This document shows positions 1,728 to 54,169 of a DNA stretch of 64,000 nucleotides, in pieces (the stretch's first letter is position 1; every line of letters begins with the position of its first letter). The notes under the pieces were generated by a model that made no database searches, had not been told where the DNA came from, and was given only the letters and a program-made list of their open reading frames with translations. The stretch covers positions 13,727 through 77,726 of the IMG/VR virus record IMGVR_UViG_3300028887_000104; one strand, written 5' to 3'. The position numbers were made by a program, and so were the translations under genes. Origin of the DNA: a virus (taxonomy: Duplodnaviria; Caudoviricetes).

Positions 1728-1940
1728 TTATCCAATGATCAGATCGTCCGGAGCGATTTCTAAGTACCGGCGGAGGAACTCCAGGTCGCTACATGGGGCG
1801 AGTTCATTGCTGACGATTTCCCGGGTATCGTCGTCCATGAGGTTGACGATGATATCCCACGGCACGGACGCGATTGCTTCTTCCGGATTACAGAATGAAT
1901 GTCCGTTGTCGATGCTGATTTTCCTGATCTGATTGTTCAT
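1728..1940 (-). CDS. Hypothetical phage protein
   Basis: AGGAGG RBS, 70 aa, collinear with neighbours. Confidence 0.65.
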   Translation of the reverse strand: MNNQIRKISIDNGHSFCNPEEAIASVPWDIIVNLMDDDTREIVSNELAPCSDLEFLRRYLEIAPDDLIIG

Positions 1941-2000
1941 TTGTTTGTCCTCCTTTTGATTGTTGTTATTATAGCGGATTATGGGACGCGTTGCAATGGG

Positions 2001-2216
2001 TTATGCCGGGTACGCGGCGCATAGTTCGTTCCAGTACGCAGCACACTCACGGTACAGTGACGGGTCTGGAGAGTAATCATCCGTGTCTTTCATGCGGAGC
2101 GACTCTACCAGGTCGATTCGCATCTCTTCCGGTGTCATCGTCTGGCCCCAGCAGTCGGAACAGTGGTACAGGTCAGCTATCCACTGTTTGTATTCGGTAT
2201 CCTTCATTGTTATCAC
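2001..2216 (-). CDS. Hypothetical phage protein
   Basis: AAGGAAG RBS, 71 aa, directly downstream of the FtsK-like gene. Confidence 0.6.
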   Translation of the reverse strand: MITMKDTEYKQWIADLYHCSDCWGQTMTPEEMRIDLVESLRMKDTDDYSPDPSLYRECAAYWNELCAAYPA

Positions 2217-2222
2217 TTCCTT

Positions 2223-2975
2223 TCACGATGCAATGCAGGCGGAGGTTGTCCACCAGTTGAGCAGGGACGGCAGGACGTTGTCGGAATACTTGTAGATGAA
2301 TTCCTTGTGCAGGTTGGCACCGTCGCGAATCCATGCATAGCTTTTGTGCTCTGTGGTCGGGTCCGGGAGCAGTTCACATCCGGGAGCGTCAATCAGGTAC
2401 ATGGACTGACGGCGGGAAGCGGTCCGGAGGCCGACAACGGTCGGGAAATTGCATTTTAGAACGGTTGGGATGGTTACGGCCAGGACGTTCTGGGTGCATG
2501 CTATCATGTGGACGCGGGCAGCTCGTCCGACCTGAGCGATCCTTTGCAGGAGCGGAAGCACAGCGTTTTTCTGTGTCGTCATCAGGTCTGCAAGCTCGTC
2601 AATGATGACGTACATGTCGGAACCGTCGTAGCTTTTGACGTGTTGCGCCTGCATGACGTGGAAACGGCGGTCCATCTCTTCTACGGTCCACTCCAGGGCG
2701 CGGATCATGTCATCAGGTTCCGACGCATAGCGGACCGTGTGTGGGAGCGGAGCGAAGTCCAGAAGCTCAACGCGCTTCGGGTCCAGTAGGACGAATTTGC
2801 AGGATGACGGCGAGCGCTGCATCAGGAGCGTGGTAATAATGCCGTTTACCAGTACGGACTTTCCGGAACCAGTGGCGCCAGCTACCAGGAGATGAGGACG
2901 GGCGGCAAGGTCTAGAAACGGAGCGTAATATTCACCACCCGGGAAACGATATGCTTTCGGAACGGAGCGGATCAT
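2223..2975 (-). CDS. FtsK/SpoIIIE-family ATPase, motor domain only
   Basis: PHLLVAGATGSGKS Walker A, LLDPKRVEL, EEMDRRF, VIIDELADLM Walker B, GRAARVHMIACTQ; no TM or gamma domain. Confidence 0.9.
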   Translation of the reverse strand: MIRSVPKAYRFPGGEYYAPFLDLAARPHLLVAGATGSGKSVLVNGIITTLLMQRSPSSCKFVLLDPKRVELLDFAPLPHTVRYASEPDDMIRALEWTVEEMDRRFHVMQAQHVKSYDGSDMYVIIDELADLMTTQKNAVLPLLQRIAQVGRAARVHMIACTQNVLAVTIPTVLKCNFPTVVGLRTASRRQSMYLIDAPGCELLPDPTTEHKSYAWIRDGANLHKEFIYKYSDNVLPSLLNWWTTSACIAS

Positions 2976-2978
2976 TTT

Positions 2979-3344
2979 TCATACCTCCTTCAAGCACACG
3001 ATATCATTTTCGACGGTGACGTCATAGAAGCCAACAGATACATCGTCATCGTGGTTTTCTTTCCGAAGCGAACGCGCGAAGCGGAGCGCAGCGCGTTTGT
3101 TGGAAAACTCTTTAGCGCCAGCAGAGTGAAACACGATATATGCAAACTTGCACACGACGATTTCGCATACAGAAACGTCGTCCAGGTCCGGAACGCTATG
3201 GGCGAAGCGTAGCGCGTCCGTTTTCCTGGTAAACGGAGCGGGATTTACGCCATCCCGCGACGGACTGATTTCGACGGAGTATCGGCGAATTGTTGCACAA
3301 CTTCCCGGATTGTAATCGTTAATTGTTGCGTACATTCTTCTCAC
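2979..3344 (-). CDS. Hypothetical protein with internal repeat (DALRFA/AALRFA, DDVSV x2)
   Basis: 121 aa ORF, AAGGA RBS. Confidence 0.6.
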   Translation of the reverse strand: MRRMYATINDYNPGSCATIRRYSVEISPSRDGVNPAPFTRKTDALRFAHSVPDLDDVSVCEIVVCKFAYIVFHSAGAKEFSNKRAALRFARSLRKENHDDDVSVGFYDVTVENDIVCLKEV

Positions 3345-3366
3345 ATCCTTTCAAGTGCTTTGGAGG

Positions 3367-3600
3367 TCAAAACTGCGAAACCGGAGCGGATGATATAATG
3401 GCCAGCGGAGCGGAGCGGGACGCGGTCCGGTAAACCCTTACGACGCCGGAGCGGACCGGGATCCGGATGTGTGTATATCCGCCTTCCGTACTGAATCTAT
3501 AGTGGATCCGGTGACGGCGGAGCGACTCCGTGACATCTTTTTCAGTTCTGGCGTTTGATAATACGGAGCGGATACGGTCCGCGGTTAGTAAGATTTTCAT
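3367..3600 (-). CDS. Hypothetical phage protein
   Basis: AAAGGA RBS before ATG at 3600 (MKILLTADR...). Confidence 0.6.
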   Translation of the reverse strand: MKILLTADRIRSVLSNARTEKDVTESLRRHRIHYRFSTEGGYTHIRIPVRSGVVRVYRTASRSAPLAIISSAPVSQF

Positions 3601-41823: not shown

Positions 41824-42393
41824 TTATGGAGCGGGTTTTTGCTTTACGCAATCGTACCAGGCATCCTCTGCCATTTGCCGGACTGTCGGAAGCAATTCAA
41901 CGGCCTGACAGAACGGCGGCGTCCAGGATTCATCCGGGGTCTTTGGCGTGTTCTCATCGCGCTGGATTTCCAGACGACGGAGCAGTTCGAAGGTATCCAG
42001 CGCGTTACTGAATTTGATCTCTTCTTCCCATCTTCTGAATGCTTCTTTCGCATCATGCTCTCTTTGCCGCTTTTTGGCGGCTTCCAGCGCCTCCGGAGAC
42101 AAAGGTGAGTCAATGTTCAGGTTGAGATGGAAGGCGGCGTTTAACCACGCTACGGCGTCTTTAAACGGCATATCGTAGTAATGTTGAACTAATGAAATAA
42201 CGTCCCCGCCGGATTTGCATACGTGACAGTAGTATCCGCGATTCCCCGGATAAAGAACACAATTGAAGTCTGTTCCTCCATGGATCGGGCACTGACAGCG
42301 GCTGTGGCGAATCTCCAGGCCGAGCATTCTTCCGACATCCTGCGCAGATACCGTGCTTTTGATCGTCTGTGCTGCGAGAGTTAGCTGGTTCAT
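41824..42393 (-). CDS. CHC2 zinc-finger (primase-like) protein
   Basis: CPIH...YYCHVCKSGGDVISLV...FKDAV.WL. Confidence 0.8.
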   Translation of the reverse strand: MNQLTLAAQTIKSTVSAQDVGRMLGLEIRHSRCQCPIHGGTDFNCVLYPGNRGYYCHVCKSGGDVISLVQHYYDMPFKDAVAWLNAAFHLNLNIDSPLSPEALEAAKKRQREHDAKEAFRRWEEEIKFSNALDTFELLRRLEIQRDENTPKTPDESWTPPFCQAVELLPTVRQMAEDAWYDCVKQKPAP

Positions 42394-43778
42394 CGGATGA
42401 TCACCGCACCCATCTTCCGATAACTCGTGCAGCGTTTTTTGTAAGCGCCCTGGCAGAAACCGATATCATCCACGAAATCATACACGACTGGCGGTTCCTT
42501 ACCCGGGAACGTGCGCTGGACGCGACCGACCGCCTGCGTGATGATCGCGCTGTACTTGCACGGGGATGCAAGGAAGAGACGATCCAGGCAGGGGACATCG
42601 AGACCTTCTTTTGCCAGACTGTAGGATGCAAACAAGTATTTTTTCTTCCCGGTGCGCATGTCCTCAATCGCCTGTTTGCGCGCGGCCTTTGCCTTTTTGC
42701 TTTGCATCTGGCCGTTGATATACGCGGCATTTTCCTTCATGTCATTGGGCAGCCATGCGATGATCGATTCCAGCTGCTCCAGACGGTCGGACAGGATCAG
42801 ACAGCTATGGTCCCAGTTCTGAACGATTGTTTCCGCGATTATCCGGTTCCTTCGTTCATCCGTTGTCAGGTATCCGATGAGCTTGACGTAGTTTATAGTA
42901 CCGTCATCATTCAGGCATTCATCTGCGATCTCGGTTCCGGTATCAATCCGGCGGATTGTCGCCTGCATGGTGCGGTCCGCAACGGCAGAGTCCGGAACTG
43001 TATAGACCACATCGCCGAGCAGTGCGAACGTGGTGCGGATCAGTCCGTCGGACCTTTCCGGAGTGGCCGTGATTCCCCACTTATGACGGGCGGACAAGTG
43101 ATTCAGAACCTTCTCATAGCGGGTAAAGGATTTAGCGGAACTGCTGACACGGTGGCATTCATCCACGATAACGACATCCCAGTAATCCCGGTACTGCTGA
43201 AGCTCCAGGTTTGCCATGGTCTGAACAGTCGCGAACGTAACGCCGACGCCGATATTGGTTTTCCCTTCCGTAATCGTTCCGATCAGAGATTCATCCATGT
43301 ATCGGAGTGCACGTTCCCGGGACTGGTTTAACAGGTCCGCCGTATGGCACAGCCAGAGTGCACGGCGACGTGTTGCTTTAATCAGCGCAATTCCCATCTG
43401 CGTCTTTCCGGAACCTGGTTTACTCTTCAGGATGCCATACTTCGCTTCCATCATTTTCATTACGGCTGTTTTCTGATCGTCGTACAGTCCCATGCTTTTG
43501 CTGCCGTAATCGATAATATTATCCTGGCGGAAGTCGCATGTGACCAGCGTATCCCGCAGAAGCGGCATAATTTCCCGGATAACGCCGAAAGGCATGATCA
43601 ACGTGTTCCCGTTCCACTCATACAAGCGAAGTTCGCGCGGGGTCCGGCCCAGCCAAAACCCCATGCGCTGCTTCTTTTCATATTCCGGATTGGCGAAACA
43701 CAGGTTTGTCTTTGCCCAGGAGATAACGTCATTGGACGGATCCTCAATAAAGATACGGTTGGCGATCTTCGTATTCAC
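42390..43778 (-). CDS. Superfamily 2 DEAD/DEAH-like helicase
   Basis: PGSGKT, VDECH, GITATPERSDG, EGLDVP.LD, QAVGRVQR. Confidence 0.9.
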   Translation of the reverse strand: MNTKIANRIFIEDPSNDVISWAKTNLCFANPEYEKKQRMGFWLGRTPRELRLYEWNGNTLIMPFGVIREIMPLLRDTLVTCDFRQDNIIDYGSKSMGLYDDQKTAVMKMMEAKYGILKSKPGSGKTQMGIALIKATRRRALWLCHTADLLNQSRERALRYMDESLIGTITEGKTNIGVGVTFATVQTMANLELQQYRDYWDVVIVDECHRVSSSAKSFTRYEKVLNHLSARHKWGITATPERSDGLIRTTFALLGDVVYTVPDSAVADRTMQATIRRIDTGTEIADECLNDDGTINYVKLIGYLTTDERRNRIIAETIVQNWDHSCLILSDRLEQLESIIAWLPNDMKENAAYINGQMQSKKAKAARKQAIEDMRTGKKKYLFASYSLAKEGLDVPCLDRLFLASPCKYSAIITQAVGRVQRTFPGKEPPVVYDFVDDIGFCQGAYKKRCTSYRKMGAVIIR

Positions 43779-44209
43779 ATATCATCCCCCCACGTTTCAC
43801 TGGCCTTTAGCCATTTCTCCAGCGGCCACGCCTGCGTGCGAATATCGTTATCCGTCATGCGTTTTCTGTTACGGTTTTTCATGGTTTCCATGCGTTCCAG
43901 AGATATCATCCACATTGTCCCATCCGGAAGGCGAAACGCAAAATAACAGAGTTCAAATGCTTTCTTATGAAACATCTTCATGGCTGATCTCTGGTTGTCC
44001 TCAATTCGTTCGAACGGAAACCCTTTGTCATCACTGATCACCTTGCAGTCGATCAGCGTATGATAGTGCCCACGGATGGCGATAATGTCCGCAGGCTGGC
44101 CGGATTTGTTCTGCTGGAGAACATGCACCCAGAATCCGGCGTCCGCCATGATATGGGACAATTCCTGTTCGAACCGGCCGCCGACGGTACGGTTATCGGT
44201 TTTCTGCAT
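43775..44209 (-). CDS. Holliday junction resolvase-like PD-(D/E)XK nuclease
   Basis: GGRFEQE, QPADIIA, LIDCK; GAGGAGG RBS. Confidence 0.7.
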   Translation of the reverse strand: MQKTDNRTVGGRFEQELSHIMADAGFWVHVLQQNKSGQPADIIAIRGHYHTLIDCKVISDDKGFPFERIEDNQRSAMKMFHKKAFELCYFAFRLPDGTMWMISLERMETMKNRNRKRMTDNDIRTQAWPLEKWLKASETWGDDM

Positions 44210-44489
44210 CCTCCTCGTCCTCCTCAAAGATGGCCTCTGCGAATTTCTCGTATTCAACCTTGCCGGTGACGTATTTCAGTTTTCCAGGCTGCGTTCCGAA
44301 CAGGCTGCACATCATTTCCTGATCTGCGGTAAAAGAGTCGCAGCAGCAGACGCCAAGCTGATCATTCCCACGGGACGTATCACAGACGATTTTGTCCCCA
44401 GCTTCCAGCAAAATTGATTTGGGGACTTTGAACAGGTATTTTCCATTGTCTTGCAGATGCTTTATAATCACAAACTTTTTCAGAATCAT
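44193..44489 (-). CDS. Hypothetical phage protein
   Basis: AGAGGAG RBS, 98 aa. Confidence 0.65.
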   Translation of the reverse strand: MILKKFVIIKHLQDNGKYLFKVPKSILLEAGDKIVCDTSRGNDQLGVCCCDSFTADQEMMCSLFGTQPGKLKYVTGKVEYEKFAEAIFEEDEEDAENR

Positions 44490-44559
44490 ATTTATTCTCC
44501 TCTAAAAATAGTCTCCGGATGCCGATCTCTGTCGGTGCTTAATCCGGAGGAATAATATT

Positions 44560-44674
44560 GCAATGCGGGTGAGGATTTGCACCTCACATGGATTTTTCGC
44601 TATTTAGCCACGCGCAGCGTCAAGCAGCATGTCTCCGTGCTATTTGCGTCTACCTATTCCAGCCACCGCATCGC
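44560..44674 (-). ncRNA. tRNA-like RNA with atypical central domain
   Basis: Minus strand: GCGATGCGG/CCGCATTGC acceptor, TGGCTGGAATAGGTAGACGC D-arm, GTGAGG-TGCAAAT-CCTCAC T-arm. Confidence 0.65.
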
Positions 44675-44859
44675 ACAGTCAGCGCCTATCCCTCGTCATC
44701 GCTGTTGCCGCGCAAACCCATACCTACACATACGCGGTCCCCACAACTGTATTGCCGTTGTGCCGTCTCCCCACCAATCAGGCACAAGTCCCGCCGATCC
44801 AACCGCCCCGGGTGCACGTCCTTGGAGTTGGAAAGGACTACTCCGAATTGAGAACATGT

Positions 44860-48905: not shown

Positions 48906-49447
48906 TCTCCTCCAAACTCCAGGTATTCGGATCGCACATACCCACGATTCGTGACAGACCATTCCGGCGTCCAGTAATAGACCGTAACAACGGTCATCGG
49001 TTTCAGCCAGCGCGTCCGTCTTCCATTGACGTATTTCCTGGCGGCGAGACGCTTATTTGCGATTACGGTATACCGTTCGTTCTTGTATTCCGGCCTGTCG
49101 TATACAACGAACCCGGAATGGATCCAACCTTCCGATTGTTCGAAGCTCAGATCAACGCAATGCAGATATCCGTTCTGTTCATCGCCGTCCAGTTTGACTA
49201 CGTCTCCGGGTTCCAGGATTCCGATACTGTTGCTGTTTTTGTTCGGACTGTTCCGGACGTTGACGTAATCATCCGGCATGCAGATCACATAGCCGTCATA
49301 GGTCCATACTTCGTCCGCGAATGCATCCGCAAAGCCGAGGTTTTTGTACAGCCAGACTACGCTGTAGATGAACGCGGCGATCAGCGCGATCTCCAGCAAC
49401 AGGATCAGGATTTTGCAGGTGTCCGTATCCCGGAAACGTTTCTTCAT
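48902..49447 (-). CDS. Membrane-anchored SH3b-domain protein
   Basis: N-terminal TM; YVNVRNSP, GWIHSGFV, GYVRSEYL. Confidence 0.75.
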   Translation of the reverse strand: MKKRFRDTDTCKILILLLEIALIAAFIYSVVWLYKNLGFADAFADEVWTYDGYVICMPDDYVNVRNSPNKNSNSIGILEPGDVVKLDGDEQNGYLHCVDLSFEQSEGWIHSGFVVYDRPEYKNERYTVIANKRLAARKYVNGRRTRWLKPMTVVTVYYWTPEWSVTNRGYVRSEYLEFGGE

Positions 49448-49902
49448 TCTGTTTGATCTCCTATCACTTCATTAATTGCGTGGATTACTCCGGCAAGCTC
49501 AGCCAGGGTCTGATACTTTGCTTTGAAAGATGTTAGTTCGCGCTTTGCGATATTGAGTAAACGCTCTTTCTTTGACTCATCGCTCATGATCACTTCCGTA
49601 GGAATGTACTCATGCGATGTGCGCTCAATGTTGAAATAGGCACGGACTGGTGGCGATTGTTCTTCATCATCCACCGTTACGGAGATGCTGGCGATCATGA
49701 CGCGCCCGGTTTGTTCCCGCCACTTTTCAGCGGCAATGGAATCGTCCCATTCAAACTCGTTATGCAGCGGCGAATCATCCGGCCTGCTCACTTCCACGAG
49801 TTCCGCAGGACTTAGCCTGCCTTTACTTGCGAGCTGATCCATTACGCTCTTTGCAACTTCTGCCGATACTTTAAACCGGCTCCCTTTTACCCATGAGATC
49901 AA
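49444..49902 (-). CDS. Accessory protein of the Cas7-like/GGYNN locus
   Basis: AAGGAG RBS directly after the array; LSPAELVEVSRPDDSPLHNEFEWDDSIAAEKWR. Confidence 0.75.
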   Translation of the reverse strand: MISWVKGSRFKVSAEVAKSVMDQLASKGRLSPAELVEVSRPDDSPLHNEFEWDDSIAAEKWREQTGRVMIASISVTVDDEEQSPPVRAYFNIERTSHEYIPTEVIMSDESKKERLLNIAKRELTSFKAKYQTLAELAGVIHAINEVIGDQTE

Positions 49903-49924
49903 GTGTAATCACTCCTTCTTTTTT

Positions 49925-50410
49925 GCCTGCCGCAGGCTTGCCTTACCGTACCGCGCCTTTCCTTTCCAGGGCGCACCATGCATTGCCAGAACGCACCTTG
50001 CCTCGCCTGCCGAACCGAACCTTGCATTTCCATAACAGAACAAACCCTATCGAACCAAACCACACATCGCCATGCCTGCCATACCATTCCTCACGCCTGC
50101 CAAACCATGCCGGACCGCGCCAGACACGGCCTTGACATAACTTGCCTGCCATACCTTACAAAACGTTGTCTTGACATATCGAACACCGACTCAACATGCA
50201 TCAACATGCCTTGCCTGCCTTGCCTTGACGCGCCAAGACTAAACGCAACATGCCGTATCCCAACTCGCCTCGCCTGCCATACCAGGACACACCAGGCACT
50301 TCCTTAACTAACCTCCCGTAACAAACCAAGCCTGCCAAACCATGACGCACCGAGACTAAACTTGCACGACCGTGCCACGCAACACCTTAACCAGACCTCC
50401 CATGCCTGCC
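49925..50410 (-). ncRNA. GGY-NN pentamer guide-like array (8 units delimited by 9 GGCAGGC)
   Basis: Strict 5-nt phase; GCCTGCC at 49925, 50005, 50074, 50095, 50144, 50213, 50272, 50330, 50404. Confidence 0.8.
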
Positions 50411-50421
50411 AGTTGCCATGT

Positions 50422-51150
50422 TCATGCGTTTTCAATATGGAACATACCGTACTGTCCGTCGCGTTCCGGTCTCCATTCGCCGATGCCGCAGACATATCCA
50501 CCAGCGTTGATCATGCTCATGATCTGGTCGATGTTGTACTGGCCGCTTTCGTTGAAAGAAATCGTCAGGTCTGCGTACCAGTTATCAAACTCGCCACGGT
50601 ACCGCAGGTCTGCACTGCCCATGCCAACCTTTACCATATCCTGGCGCATCGACAGCTTTTCATACTTGATCTCCACCATCGGTTCGTTGTGGAACACGTT
50701 CGGAATGATGTCGATCCGCTTATGGTCCGGAGCAATTTCCATGTCACCGGCCCAGTAACCGTTCACCTGCGGTTCGATGAAGAACACGCCGCGCAGCGAC
50801 ATCTTGTCCTTCGACCATCCCATCCGGTAAGCTGCACTGATTGCCGCCTGCTTAATACCGGTCAGCGGGAATCCGAATCTCGCGCCATTTTCGATAGCGT
50901 CGCTGATGCTTTCTTTCGTCAACGGATCCGGCATTTTGTCGAGCCAGTACATGCTGGTGGCAAAATCTTCATATGGGTTCTTCGGATCTTTTACGACCCG
51001 CTTGATGCCCATTTCGGACTCAAGCATCGCGCGTTTCGCTTTTACATCCCAGCAGTGGGTGATCAGCGGAGAATCTCCGACGATCCTAATGTTGACCAGT
51101 TTCTTCCTAATGGGTTCGATAGTAATGAGTTCCTTTTTTGCCGCAGCCAT
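50422..51150 (-). CDS. Cas7/RAMP-like RNA-binding protein (Vipr-like)
   Basis: IRIVGDSPLI N-terminal strand, FPLTGIKQA, and C-terminal Gly-rich loop GGYVCGIGEWRPERDGQYGMF as in RAMP proteins. Confidence 0.65.
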   Translation of the reverse strand: MAAAKKELITIEPIRKKLVNIRIVGDSPLITHCWDVKAKRAMLESEMGIKRVVKDPKNPYEDFATSMYWLDKMPDPLTKESISDAIENGARFGFPLTGIKQAAISAAYRMGWSKDKMSLRGVFFIEPQVNGYWAGDMEIAPDHKRIDIIPNVFHNEPMVEIKYEKLSMRQDMVKVGMGSADLRYRGEFDNWYADLTISFNESGQYNIDQIMSMINAGGYVCGIGEWRPERDGQYGMFHIENA

Positions 51151-52063: not shown

Positions 52064-52294
52064 TTAAGTCGTTTCGTCATATTTCGGATCAAAAAAAATT
52101 TCCTGAACTGTTTTTCCGAAGTAGTTTGCGATAAGCGCCTTTGATTGGTCGTTCGGCTGTTTCAGGCCATCTTCATATTTCGATAATGCCGAATAACTGA
52201 TACCAATTTCCTGCGCGGTGCCGGTCCGTTTTCGTATTCCGCGAAGTTTTCGCAGTCTCCGACCGACCTCCTTTGGATCCACCACAGTGTTCAT
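52064..52294 (-). CDS. Cro-like XRE regulator
   Basis: TAQEIGISYSALSKYEDG.KQP; divergent from repressor. Confidence 0.85.
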   Translation of the reverse strand: MNTVVDPKEVGRRLRKLRGIRKRTGTAQEIGISYSALSKYEDGLKQPNDQSKALIANYFGKTVQEIFFDPKYDETT

Positions 52295-52444: not shown

Positions 52445-52804
52445 ATGAATTATTCTGATAAAATACGCAACCTTCGCATTCAGCGTGGACTAACTCAAAT
52501 GGAAATGGCAGAGCGCCTTGGGACGAGTCAATCAGCAATAACCAGCTGGGAATGTGGAAGAAGAGAACCTGATTTTGCTACACTTCGTAAACTGGCAAAT
52601 TTCTTCAATGTTCCGCTTTCCGCATTGCTTCCATCTGACGACACAGTAGATGATGATTATATCGGAGCAGTTGCTGAAAGCCTTCATCAGAATCCAAAGC
52701 TTCGTTTGCTTTTTGACAGGTCAAAATTCCTGAGTGATTCTGATCTGGATACGGTAATTTCTGTTGTTTCTGCTATTTCTAAGGAGCGCAATGATGACGC
52801 CTGA
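52445..52804 (+). CDS. CI-like immunity repressor (XRE)
   Basis: LTQMEMAERLGTSQSAITSWECGRREPD. Confidence 0.88.
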   Translation: MNYSDKIRNLRIQRGLTQMEMAERLGTSQSAITSWECGRREPDFATLRKLANFFNVPLSALLPSDDTVDDDYIGAVAESLHQNPKLRLLFDRSKFLSDSDLDTVISVVSAISKERNDDA

Positions 52805-53002: not shown

Positions 53003-54169
53003 ATGGCTGATATATTTTGCCCAAAGTGCGGCAAAGAAGTACCTACCGGATCAGCATTCTGCAACCATTGCGGAAAAAAACTGATTGCTCCGGAGAAAAA
53101 GGCAGTCCGAAAAGTGCGCGGAAATGGCATGGGTTGCGCAATTAAAAGAGGCAAGACCTGGACCGCTGTCGTGACCATGGACTGGATCCGGCCGGAAGAT
53201 CCGAGCAAACCTAAGAAGCCAATCCGTCGGACAAAAGGTGGCTTTCCAAGCAAGGCGGCTGCGATTGCCTATTGCCCAACACTTCTGGCTGGAGGCTATG
53301 AGAAAAAAGAAGAAGCCCCCAGGCTGTCGCATTATTGGAAGGTCTATTCTGAAGGCGATATGCTGACGATATCAAAAGGAAAACAGTCAGCGTATCGGAC
53401 CGCATGGAATAAGCTGAAATCTATACATGACGTTCGCGTGGATGCTATTACGGTAGAGCTTCTTCGAAACACTGTGTCGGAAGCATGTAAAACATTCGAC
53501 CCGGCAAAGGATTGCAAATCGCTTCTGGCGAATCTGTTTGAATTGGCGGCTGCGGATCGGTTCGCTGTTCGTGAGCTTCCTTCTTATATCATTCTGCCTG
53601 AACATATAGTAAAGGAAAGAGAAACGTTTACCAAGGAAGAACAGGCTGCGTTGTGGAAGGCATATGACAACGGTGATATACGAGCTGCCGTGCCGCTTCT
53701 GATGATCGCCAGCGGGATGATGCCGGGTGAAATGATGCTTCTTAAAACGGATAACATTGATCTGGACAAAAGGATCATTGTCAGGGCCGGACTGAAGACA
53801 AAGATACGGAAGCGCACACCTGTTGTGTTATCGGATGCGATCCTTCCGGTTGTGAAAGATCTGATTGATCATGCCATGCCATCCGGATATATATGGAAGC
53901 GCGATGAAAAGCTATGGTATGATAACTATTACGCCGTACTTGAGAAGACTGAATGCAGGAAACTGCAACCATATTGCTGTCGGCATACCTGCGCGAGTCA
54001 GCTGTCCATTGATCAGAACATACCGCCGCAGACCATACGCCGGATTATGCGCTGGAGCACGACAAAAATGTTAGATCATTATGCTCATCCGGATACGTCG
54101 GATGCCCTGGCTGGAGTCAATAAGATCCAGAAACCTACAGATGACACGGATGGCAAGAGTGAGTCATGA
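53003..54169 (+). CDS. int: Phage integrase (tyrosine recombinase) with N-terminal zinc ribbon
   Basis: CPKCG..CNHCG, arm-binding-like W.A.V, PYCCRHT, MRWSTTKMLDHYAH. Confidence 0.85.
   Translation: MADIFCPKCGKEVPTGSAFCNHCGKKLIAPEKKAVRKVRGNGMGCAIKRGKTWTAVVTMDWIRPEDPSKPKKPIRRTKGGFPSKAAAIAYCPTLLAGGYEKKEEAPRLSHYWKVYSEGDMLTISKGKQSAYRTAWNKLKSIHDVRVDAITVELLRNTVSEACKTFDPAKDCKSLLANLFELAAADRFAVRELPSYIILPEHIVKERETFTKEEQAALWKAYDNGDIRAAVPLLMIASGMMPGEMMLLKTDNIDLDKRIIVRAGLKTKIRKRTPVVLSDAILPVVKDLIDHAMPSGYIWKRDEKLWYDNYYAVLEKTECRKLQPYCCRHTCASQLSIDQNIPPQTIRRIMRWSTTKMLDHYAHPDTSDALAGVNKIQKPTDDTDGKSES

What the first reader, a model, noticed from the sequence alone, without database searches (positions are those of the whole stretch)
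49444..51150. Cas7/RAMP-like gene + GGY-NN pentamer array + accessory gene: candidate RNA-guided system (VIPR-like)
Seen: on the minus strand a 242-aa ORF with a RAMP-like N-terminal strand and C-terminal Gly-rich loop is followed about 10 nt after its stop by about 490 nt of non-coding DNA in strict 5-nt phase. Each pentamer is a conserved triplet (GGY, variants GTY/TGY/GAY/GGA) plus a variable dinucleotide. The array ends in a GCCTGC-G-GCAGGC hairpin and the RBS of a 152-aa gene. There are no cas1/cas2, nuclease or repeat-spacer CRISPR array. Known: Cas7-family proteins polymerise along guide RNA with fixed periodicity. From memory (not verified here), recently reported phage VIPR systems have this layout, and the NN bases form a non-contiguous guide to DNA. 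Inference: each protomer grips one triplet and presents the NN bases, giving a programmable repressor. It sits in the early leftward operon, consistent with use against competing phages or elements.
Basis: partly seen in the sequence, partly recalled or inferred. Interest (0 to 1): 0.95.

Follow-up and report, generated by a model that had tools for sequence, protein, structure and literature searches.

The report
Phage VIPR guide-RNA system, staggered array
This temperate phage carries a complete VIPR system (a Cas7-like protein, an array of eight GGYNN-repeat guide RNAs and an accessory gene); it belongs to a family first described in 2026, and two of its guides decode to genes of a rival prophage family, including that family's BREX defence operon.

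The parts
50422..51150 (-). vipr: 242-aa Vipr protein (minimal RAMP/Cas7-like). The G-loop CGIGEWRP is at residues 221-228. H32, R185, E225, W226 and R227 align with the SUSP1 GGY-binding residues H17, R138, D177, W178 and R179.
49925..50410 (-). Staggered vrRNA array: eight blocks of GGYNN units punctuated by GGCA|G junctions. It is co-oriented with vipr and the accessory gene.
   Evidence: RNA fold z-score 0.14, so no structure beyond chance. No Rfam hit.
50337..50410 (-). Block b1: GGCA plus 14 units. Target not found.
   Evidence: Parse. The 10-unit seed gave 0 hits in viral contigs and in metagenome contigs.
50279..50336 (-). Block b2: GGCA plus 11 units, one of them an irregular 4-nt unit. 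Target not found.
50220..50278 (-). Block b3: GGCA plus 11 units. Target not found (only background-level hits).
50151..50219 (-). Block b4: GGCA plus 13 units. It decodes to brxC (the BREX ATPase gene) at the peptide NIDIEGSINK.
   Evidence: The first 10 units match 20/20 (23/26 overall) on 9 IMG/VR contigs, with the skipped base on the wobble position. BrxC identified by Pfam and PADLOC. Six of the 9 contigs also carry the rival-family DUF2800 exonuclease.
50102..50150 (-). Block b5: GGCA plus 9 units. There is one 18/18 hit, which is at chance level.
50081..50101 (-). Block b6: a 21-nt degenerate remnant block.
50012..50080 (-). Block b7: GGCA plus 13 units. Target not found.
49932..50011 (-). 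Block b8: GGCA plus 15 units, one of them an irregular 6-nt unit. It decodes to a ParB_N + N6_N4 DNA methyltransferase gene at the peptide EKALNIALNKAT.
   Evidence: Units 1-12 match 24/24 on 51 IMG/VR contigs. More than 117 contigs match units 1-8. Alignments; gene identity.
49925..49931 (-). Terminal GGCAGGC junction.
   Evidence: Not conserved in homologues.
49444..49902 (-). Accessory (vap-like) gene: 152 aa, TTG start, RBS at 49912-49917. Conserved motif PLH-EFEWDD-AAE-R. Fold and function unknown.
   Evidence: Found downstream of the array in L001, L002, L006, L007, L008 and L255-L258. 162 homologues. Invariant residues H47, F50, A57, A58, R62. phrog_15946; no Pfam, NCBIfam or PDB match.

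Best explanation
This is a phage-encoded VIPR (Viral Interference Programmable Repeat) system of the staggered-array kind.

Inferred from gene order: the early leftward transcript of the temperate phage runs through vipr, the array and the accessory gene.

Inferred from homology to the solved SUSP1 complex: Vipr protomers polymerise along the RNA, one per pentamer, gripping each GGY (here often GTY or TGY) and presenting the two N bases.

Shown here by decoding: each block of 9-15 units between GGCA|G junctions acts as one guide. Its NN string pairs with double-stranded DNA that reads NNxNNx..., skipping every third base.

Targets. Guide b8 recognises the ParB-methyltransferase gene, which lies just upstream of the terminase genes, in a widespread family of proviruses (DUF2800 exonuclease, Gp2.5-like SSB, PolA, ParB-MTase, TerL). 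Guide b4 recognises brxC in a BREX operon carried by members of that same family.

Inferred from the published SUSP1 experiments: the bound filament blocks transcription, so the phage silences a resident or co-infecting competitor and possibly that competitor's BREX defence. The accessory protein probably assists, as Vap1 does in SUSP1; how it does so is unknown.
For: Protein.
- The only PDB sequence match is SUSP1 Vipr.
- The GGY-contact residues named in 10.64898/2026.04.26.720927 align with H32, R185, E225, W226, R227 and C221. R185 and R227 are invariant across 86 homologues.

Array.
- 5-nt periodicity has z 8.8, with a low-entropy triplet and high-entropy NN.
- GGCA|G punctuation with block lengths of 4+5n recurs in 12 homologous loci, with Vipr identity ranging from 90% down to 45%. 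The NN bases differ throughout.

Decoding.
- b8 matches 24/24 on 51 contigs. The expectation is about 4e-4, calibrated on 26 background hits per 16 specified bases.
- The skipped base falls on the wobble position of a conserved peptide, and the target sites differ only at the skipped positions.
- b4 matches brxC 20/20, and 6 of the 9 contigs are of the same family.
- In a fair test on 27 guides from other loci against 2 Mb of DNA that was not chosen for them, only skip = 1 gave matches of 90% or more (5 guides, against 0 for skip 0, 2 or 3).
- Guides from eight other arrays hit identified genes of the same family: PolA, SSB, exonuclease, TerL and a SAM-synthetase-like gene.
- b8 and b4 have the same sense as the mRNA, so the target must be DNA.
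- There is no self-target in the 77.7-kb record.
Against: - Nothing here shows transcription, processing or RNP formation.
- Only 2 of the 7 usable window guides were decoded.
- 46% of the triplets are not canonical GGY, and the SUSP1 pocket is described as recognising both guanines.
- The b4-brxC seed match alone is only marginally significant (about 0.1-0.2 expected). Its weight comes from the linkage to the rival family.
- Silencing brxC on infection would not remove BREX protein that is already made.
- The accessory protein has no recognisable DNA-binding or nuclease domain, and only the C-terminal third of Vipr aligns well to SUSP1 Vipr.
Confidence: 0.87

Rival explanations
1. It is a true VIPR system, but the outcome is destruction or replication block of the target rather than transcriptional silencing. 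In this reading the 152-aa accessory protein is recruited as an effector, as predicted for the nuclease-associated VIPR types III-V.
For: - The accessory gene is strictly syntenic with vipr and the array, and its function is unknown.
- The preprint reports nuclease or helicase vap genes in some types.
- The targets include replication and packaging genes, where cutting would be effective.
Against: - No nuclease or helicase domain or motif was found by Pfam, NCBIfam, PHROGs annotation or a PDB profile search.
- According to the preprint, phage-borne VIPRs with small vap genes are of the DNA-binding/silencing kind.
Confidence: 0.1
2. The array is a decaying or idle relic: Vipr is present, but the guides are too degenerate to work.
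For: - 46% of triplets are GTY, TGY, GAY and similar rather than GGY.
- One block (b6) is a 21-nt remnant, and b2 and b8 contain irregular units.
- Five guides have no identified target.
Against: - The same degeneracy (position 2 is G 78% and T 18%) is seen across 477 units in 9 arrays. That set includes guides with perfect 20/20 to 22/22 targets; a further 20/20 guide comes from a later-parsed array.
- b8 itself has 4 non-GGY triplets among its 12 perfectly matching units.
- The preprint notes frequent internal degeneracy and variant consensus units.
Confidence: 0.04
3. It is not an RNA guide array at all. The pentamer repeats would be DNA-level binding sites (iterons) or a low-complexity spacer, and the target matches would be coincidental.
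For: - No expression data exist.
- Promoter and terminator scans are uninformative.
Against: - 51 exact 24-base gapped matches were found where about 4e-4 were expected.
- The matches are specific to the 1-nt-skip rule.
- Independent arrays converge on one phage family.
- The adjacent protein is homologous to one solved in complex with such RNA.
Confidence: 0.01

Closest known systems
Type II VIPR of Escherichia phage SUSP1 / Pseudomonas fulva prophage (bioRxiv 10.64898/2026.04.26.720920, .720927, 2026.10.15.759431)
   Same: - A homologous Vipr protein with conserved GGY-binding residues.
- GGY/NN pentamer guides of 9-16 units.
- The 1-nt-skip, wobble-phased DNA code.
- A minimal vipr + vap locus in a phage.
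- Targets in competing mobile elements, including other vipr genes (L004 guide b2 against the L002 vipr).
- No self-targeting.
   Different: - Sequence similarity is distant (E 4e-7, mainly the C-terminal 65 residues).
- There is no 3' tail or pseudoknot: guides abut through a GGCA|G junction instead.
- The whole array lies between vipr and the accessory gene.
- The accessory protein shows no detectable relation to anything solved or to any Pfam family.
- The triplet is more degenerate (G/T-G/T-Y).
- The host is probably a Clostridia bacterium (L003).
'Staggered vrRNA arrays' named in the VIPR preprint (fig. S18 legend, read)
   Same: The legend says that individual vrRNAs derive from 1-nt overlapping positions, so that the end of one marks the start of the next. 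Here each block ends in GGCAG, and its last G is the first G of the next block's first GGY. This produces the -1 phase slip.
   Different: The figure and supplementary tables are not held. I therefore could not check which VIPR type this belongs to, whether the junction word is the same, or whether this clade is among the 667 catalogued systems.
Class 1 CRISPR backbone subunits Cas7/Csm3 (e.g. 6IFN chain E, 9G9G, 8DO6)
   Different: Sequence identity is about 10-12%. There is no repeat-spacer array, no cas1/cas2 and no Cas6, Cas5 or large subunit. The register is 5 nt rather than 6 nt, and the guide is non-contiguous.
Protein anti-BREX factors such as T7 Ocr (from general knowledge, not tested here)
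   Same: If guide b4 is functional, the phage counteracts a BREX system.
   Different: The action would be RNA-guided silencing of the brxC gene on a rival prophage, not protein mimicry or inhibition. It would not affect BREX protein that is already present.

Membership tests
VIPR system | Sequence homology to an experimentally characterised Vipr | tested here: met
   SUSP1 Vipr (36pp_D) is the only PDB hit: E 4e-7 with the single sequence and 1.3e-13 with the profile. The well-aligned part is the C-terminal 65-73 residues.
VIPR system | Residues that hold the GGY motif (SUSP1 H17, R138, C173, D177, W178, R179) | tested here: met
   They align with H32, R185, C221, E225 (D to E), W226 and R227 (residues). 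R185 and R227 are invariant in 86 homologues. The H32 alignment lies in a weak-scoring segment.
VIPR system | Adjacent non-coding tandem GGYNN (YNNGG) units, at least 4 in a row and 9-16 per vrRNA | tested here: met
   93 regular units in 8 blocks of 3-15 units; seven of the blocks have 9-15.
VIPR system | Conserved triplet with hypervariable NN across related loci | tested here: met
   Entropy 0.57/0.95/1.28 bits against 1.77/1.95 bits over 477 units from 9 arrays. The NN strings differ between loci; four further arrays parsed later show the same.
VIPR system | Guides decode by the 1-nt-skip rule to natural DNA targets, often wobble-phased in coding sequence and on either strand | tested here: met
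   b8 matches 24/24 on 51 contigs. Only skip = 1 works. Both gene orientations are seen, e.g. L002 b3 is antisense while b8 and b4 are sense.
VIPR system | No self-targeting at 80% NN match or above | tested here: met
   The best self scores on the 77.7-kb record lie within the shuffled-guide range.
VIPR system | Minimal locus with a vap accessory gene and no cas genes or CRISPR array | tested here: inconclusive
   A syntenic 152-aa gene is present. It cannot be assigned to vap1-6 because no reference sequences are held and it has no Pfam, PDB or NCBIfam match. No CRISPR repeat family was found in the window. The remaining genes of the window were not screened one by one for cas genes.
VIPR system | vrRNAs are expressed, processed and bound by Vipr | not testable with these tools
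   Needs small-RNA sequencing and a pull-down.
VIPR type II (SUSP1 clade) | Invariant structured 3' tail (pseudoknot) after each repeat tract | tested here: not met
   The blocks abut directly. The array RNA folds no better than shuffles (z 0.14). There is no conserved non-repeat segment between blocks. The locus is therefore not filed under type II.
CRISPR-Cas (class 1) | Repeat-spacer array with a cas1/cas2 adaptation module and a multi-subunit effector | tested here: not met
   There are no direct repeats of CRISPR type and no Rfam CRISPR family. The neighbouring genes are phage early genes.

The most novel reading that the evidence does not exclude
The phage uses one VIPR guide (b4) to bind and silence brxC. 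By polarity this would silence the BREX operon carried as cargo by a rival prophage family. VIPR would then act as an RNA-guided anti-defence weapon as well as an anti-competitor weapon. No paper in the held library mentions VIPR or vrRNA together with BREX.
Probability: 0.5. Interest if true: 0.7.

Novelty: new member of a known kind. Interest (0 to 1): 0.5.

Why it matters
VIPR was reported only in 2026 and was characterised in two proteobacterial type II systems. This locus is a clean natural example of the tail-less staggered architecture in a probable Clostridia phage, and its guides can be read directly from sequence.

Decoding identifies the opponent. It is a widespread provirus family, which arrays of this clade hit at PolA, SSB, exonuclease, methyltransferase and terminase genes.

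Decoding also suggests that a prophage-borne BREX operon is itself a target. If that is confirmed, the known uses of non-contiguous RNA guides would extend from repressing competitors to disarming their defences.

The cultured Gordonia phage UmaThurman has the same punctuated array, currently annotated as a protein gene. It offers a tractable system for testing how staggered arrays are processed.

Tried and rejected
- A single-sequence AlphaFold run gave an unusable model (pLDDT 32). It was replaced by the alignment-based run.
- The search for related loci with the 86-sequence alignment failed because no stretch was conserved enough.
- The genome search 'relatives' is not available because the record is a virus, so no host genome could be scanned.
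- 10-unit exact seeds for b1 and b3 gave no hit in viral contigs. The b1 seed gave none in metagenome contigs either.
- The b3 9-unit seed in metagenomes gave 24 heterogeneous hits with no significant extension.
- The b7 and b5 8-unit seeds gave only background (26 hits each). The best extensions were 22/26 and 18/18, both at chance level.
- Scanning the window guides as degenerate peptides against 270 Vipr homologues gave nothing above shuffles.
- Scanning ten whole rival proviruses (G001-G010) found only the b8 site among the window guides.
- Skip rules 0, 2 and 3 were rejected.
- Rfam (E-value mode on the locus, gathering mode on the window) and ARAGORN found nothing. Tandem Repeats Finder misses the array because the units are too degenerate.
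- The accessory protein has no match in Pfam, NCBIfam or PDB, by sequence or by profile. The ESM Atlas lists only unnamed viral clusters.
- The VIPR type (I-VII) could not be assigned because the preprint's supplementary data are not held.
Full report
**What is there.** On the minus strand, a 242-aa ORF (50422-51150) ends 11 nt before the first GGCAGGC word (50410). A 486-nt ORF-poor stretch then runs to 49925. It is followed by an AAGGAG ribosome-binding site (49917-49912) and the TTG start of a 152-aa ORF (49444-49902). The surroundings are a temperate-phage control region: an integrase at 53003-54169(+), a cI-like HTH gene at 52445-52804(+), a cro-like HTH gene at 52064-52294(-), then the leftward early operon. 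Downstream lie an SH3_3 protein and an exonuclease VIII-like DUF3799 protein. The window belongs to a 77,726-bp virus record.

**Periodicity.** Lag-5 identity is 0.455, against 0.282 +/- 0.020 for shuffles (z 8.8). Lag-3 identity is 0.20, so the short ORFs that the ORF listing reports inside the stretch are not coding. A dynamic-programming parse gives 93 regular pentamers. The triplets are GGC 29, GGT 21, GTT 13, GTC 9, TGC 6 and minor others. Position entropies are 0.58, 1.11 and 1.29 bits for the triplet, and 1.73 and 1.94 bits for the two N positions.

The phase is not constant. A 4-nt unit GGCA occurs eight times, always followed by G, and each occurrence shifts the register by -1. The blocks are 74, 58, 59, 69, 49, 21, 69 and 80 nt long. 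Read as overlapping units, each block ends in GGCAG, and that last G is the first base of the next block. This matches the preprint's legend for 'staggered vrRNA arrays', in which vrRNAs 'derive from 1 nt overlapping positions'. The array RNA is no more structured than shuffles (z 0.14). It matches no Rfam family.

**The protein.** Pfam and NCBIfam find nothing, and PHROGs places it in phrog_4652, of unknown function. Against all PDB sequences the only real match is 36pp_D, 'SUSP1 Vipr protein' (E 4e-7; 1.3e-13 with a profile of 86 homologues). In that alignment the residues the cryo-EM preprint names as holding the GGY motif (H17, R138, C173, D177, W178, R179) correspond to H32, R185, C221, E225, W226 and R227. 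R185 and R227 are invariant in the 86-sequence alignment.

The family is large: 4,691 proteins in the 90%-cluster search and 2,224 clusters at 50% identity. Among cultured phages, 32 GenBank records of Gordonia and Mycobacterium phages carry 29-35% identical genes annotated as hypothetical.

**Synteny and array turnover.** Twelve homologous loci have the same order: vipr, then a GGCA|G-punctuated array, then (where the contig extends that far) a 148-166-aa homologue of the accessory gene. Vipr identity ranges from 90% down to 45%. The sources are a Clostridia MAG, IMG/VR contigs and ENA/Logan assemblies. The intergenic regions holding the arrays range from about 240 to about 1,040 nt, block lengths are 4+5n, and the NN content is unrelated between loci. 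One 37%-identical homologue (L010) has the accessory gene directly after vipr.

In more distant members the unit after GGCA is GTT, GAC or GAT rather than GGC, so the invariant punctuation is GGCA|G. The terminal palindrome in the window is not conserved.

**Decoding.** The preprints show that vrRNA NN dinucleotides pair with double-stranded DNA while skipping one base (target NNx), usually with x on the codon wobble position. I applied this rule.

No window guide matches its own 77.7-kb record above shuffled controls.

*Guide b8.* An 8-unit seed from b8 hit more than 117 IMG/VR contigs. All hits were in frame on the peptide EKALNIALNK of a 425-480-aa ParB_N + N6_N4 methyltransferase, and the sites differ only at the skipped positions. 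The 12-unit pattern (24 specified bases) is matched exactly on 51 contigs. Unrelated 16-base seeds give 26 hits each, which implies about 4e-4 chance matches for 24 bases. Two of the 51 contigs come from metagenomes 3300028832 and 3300028833. The first of these also holds close relatives of this VIPR locus (L002, L004, L005).

*Guide b4.* An 8-unit seed from b4 gave 50 hits. Nine of them extend to 10 perfect units (20/20; 23/26 overall) on the peptide NIDIEGSINK of a roughly 1,190-aa protein. Pfam and PADLOC identify that protein as the BREX ATPase BrxC. Taken alone, this extension has a chance expectation of about 0.1-0.2. However, six of the nine contigs also encode the DUF2800 exonuclease that marks the phage family hit by b8, and the three that lack it are incomplete records. 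One of the six is a 67.8-kb provirus that CheckV rates 100% complete. On L048 and L025 the order is: replication module, small ORFs, an ABC-3C system, then brxA-brxB-brxC. I therefore regard brxC as a probable, not proven, target.

*The rule and the opponent, tested on independent guides.* I tested guides from the other arrays against about 2 Mb of viral DNA that had been fetched only through window-guide seeds. Five of 27 guides reached 90% NN match or better with skip = 1, and none did with skip 0, 2 or 3. The hits fall in:
- the large terminase (L002 b5, 22/22);
- the DUF2800 exonuclease (L002 b3, 27/28);
- family A DNA polymerase (L256 20/20; also L002, L007, L258 and L001);
- the Enc34/Gp2.5-like SSB (two L003 guides and one L004 guide);
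- a SAM-synthetase-like gene (L257, 21/22).

All of these genes are in the same provirus family. Whole proviruses of that family (G001-G010) confirm the hits, and five of them, checked with the window proteins, carry no vipr. One L004 guide matches the vipr gene of the L002 phage, from the same metagenome, at 19/20. It spares its own vipr by two units, which echoes published vipr-on-vipr targeting. Guides b8 and b4 have the sense of the mRNA, so they cannot act by pairing with the transcript. L002 b3 is antisense. This fits DNA recognition on either strand.

**Mechanism.**
- Shown here: homology and fold of Vipr; the unit structure and punctuation of the array; conservation of the module; the specific gapped complementarity to rival-phage genes.
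- Taken from the published SUSP1 work, not tested here: one protomer per pentamer, GGY flipped into protein pockets, triplex or R-loop binding of double-stranded DNA, and transcriptional silencing.
- Inferred: the array is co-transcribed with vipr from the early leftward promoter and cut or bounded at GGCA|G. Binding inside the ParB-MTase gene, which lies just upstream of the terminase genes (L109: MTase 127-1401, TerL 1909-3474), would also depress packaging genes by polarity. Binding in brxC would depress pglX/pglZ.
- Unknown: the role of the accessory protein. It has no match in Pfam, NCBIfam or PDB, and its conserved motif is PLH-EFEWDD-AAE-R.

**What remains open.** Guides b1, b2, b3, b5 and b7 have no significant target in IMG/VR, in the JGI/ENA metagenome collection (exact seeds only) or in ten rival proviruses. 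Block b6 is a remnant. The VIPR type cannot be assigned without the preprint's supplementary tables. The host is inferred only loosely, from a Clostridia MAG that carries a 56%-identical syntenic locus.

**Novelty and verdict.** Three things may be new: the identity of the opponent family, the concentration of guides on its replication, methylation and packaging genes, and above all the candidate targeting of a prophage-borne BREX operon. No paper in the held library links VIPR with BREX.

Noticed in passing
L254 3128-3451 (NC_031249.1 33362-33685, Gordonia phage UmaThurman): The CDS annotated 'gp40 hypothetical protein', directly after the Vipr homologue gp39 (35% identical to the window protein), has lag-5 identity 0.57 and lag-3 identity 0.21. 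It reads as GGYNN units with GGCAGG punctuation. It is very probably a vrRNA array mis-called as a gene, in a cultured phage.
   Followed up: partly
L255 1-3612: In a 66%-identical relative, the vipr-array-accessory cassette sits between a DUF2800 exonuclease and an Enc34-type SSB. This is inside the kind of replication module that other arrays of this clade target, so the cassette moves between phage backbones.
   Followed up: no
L048 2500-12230; L025 3-9400: Members of the rival provirus family carry a defence island next to their replication module. It holds two different ABC-3C systems (CTD11/DUF2326 in one, CTD6/MC2 in the other) followed by brxA-brxB-brxC.
   Followed up: partly
L004 array block 2 against L002 3138-3167: A guide from one phage matches the vipr gene of a related phage from the same metagenome (3300028832) at 19/20, wobble-phased. 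Its own vipr differs at two units. This looks like vipr-against-vipr conflict within this clade.
   Followed up: yes
L257 2472-3250: This is the largest array seen: about 1 kb between vipr and the accessory gene, with about 15-20 GGCA-punctuated blocks, several of them truncated to 5-9 nt.
   Followed up: no
L121 1926-2765 and homologues: Rival proviruses encode a 265-282-aa protein with an S-adenosylmethionine synthetase N-terminal domain, about 1.2 kb upstream of their ParB-methyltransferase in L121. An L257 guide targets it at 21/22.
   Followed up: partly
window 1-64000: ARAGORN finds no tRNA and Rfam (gathering thresholds) finds no family anywhere in the window. Earlier first-reader notes on this genome describe tRNA-like mimics at about 33790-44858. 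Those elements were not examined here.
   Followed up: no
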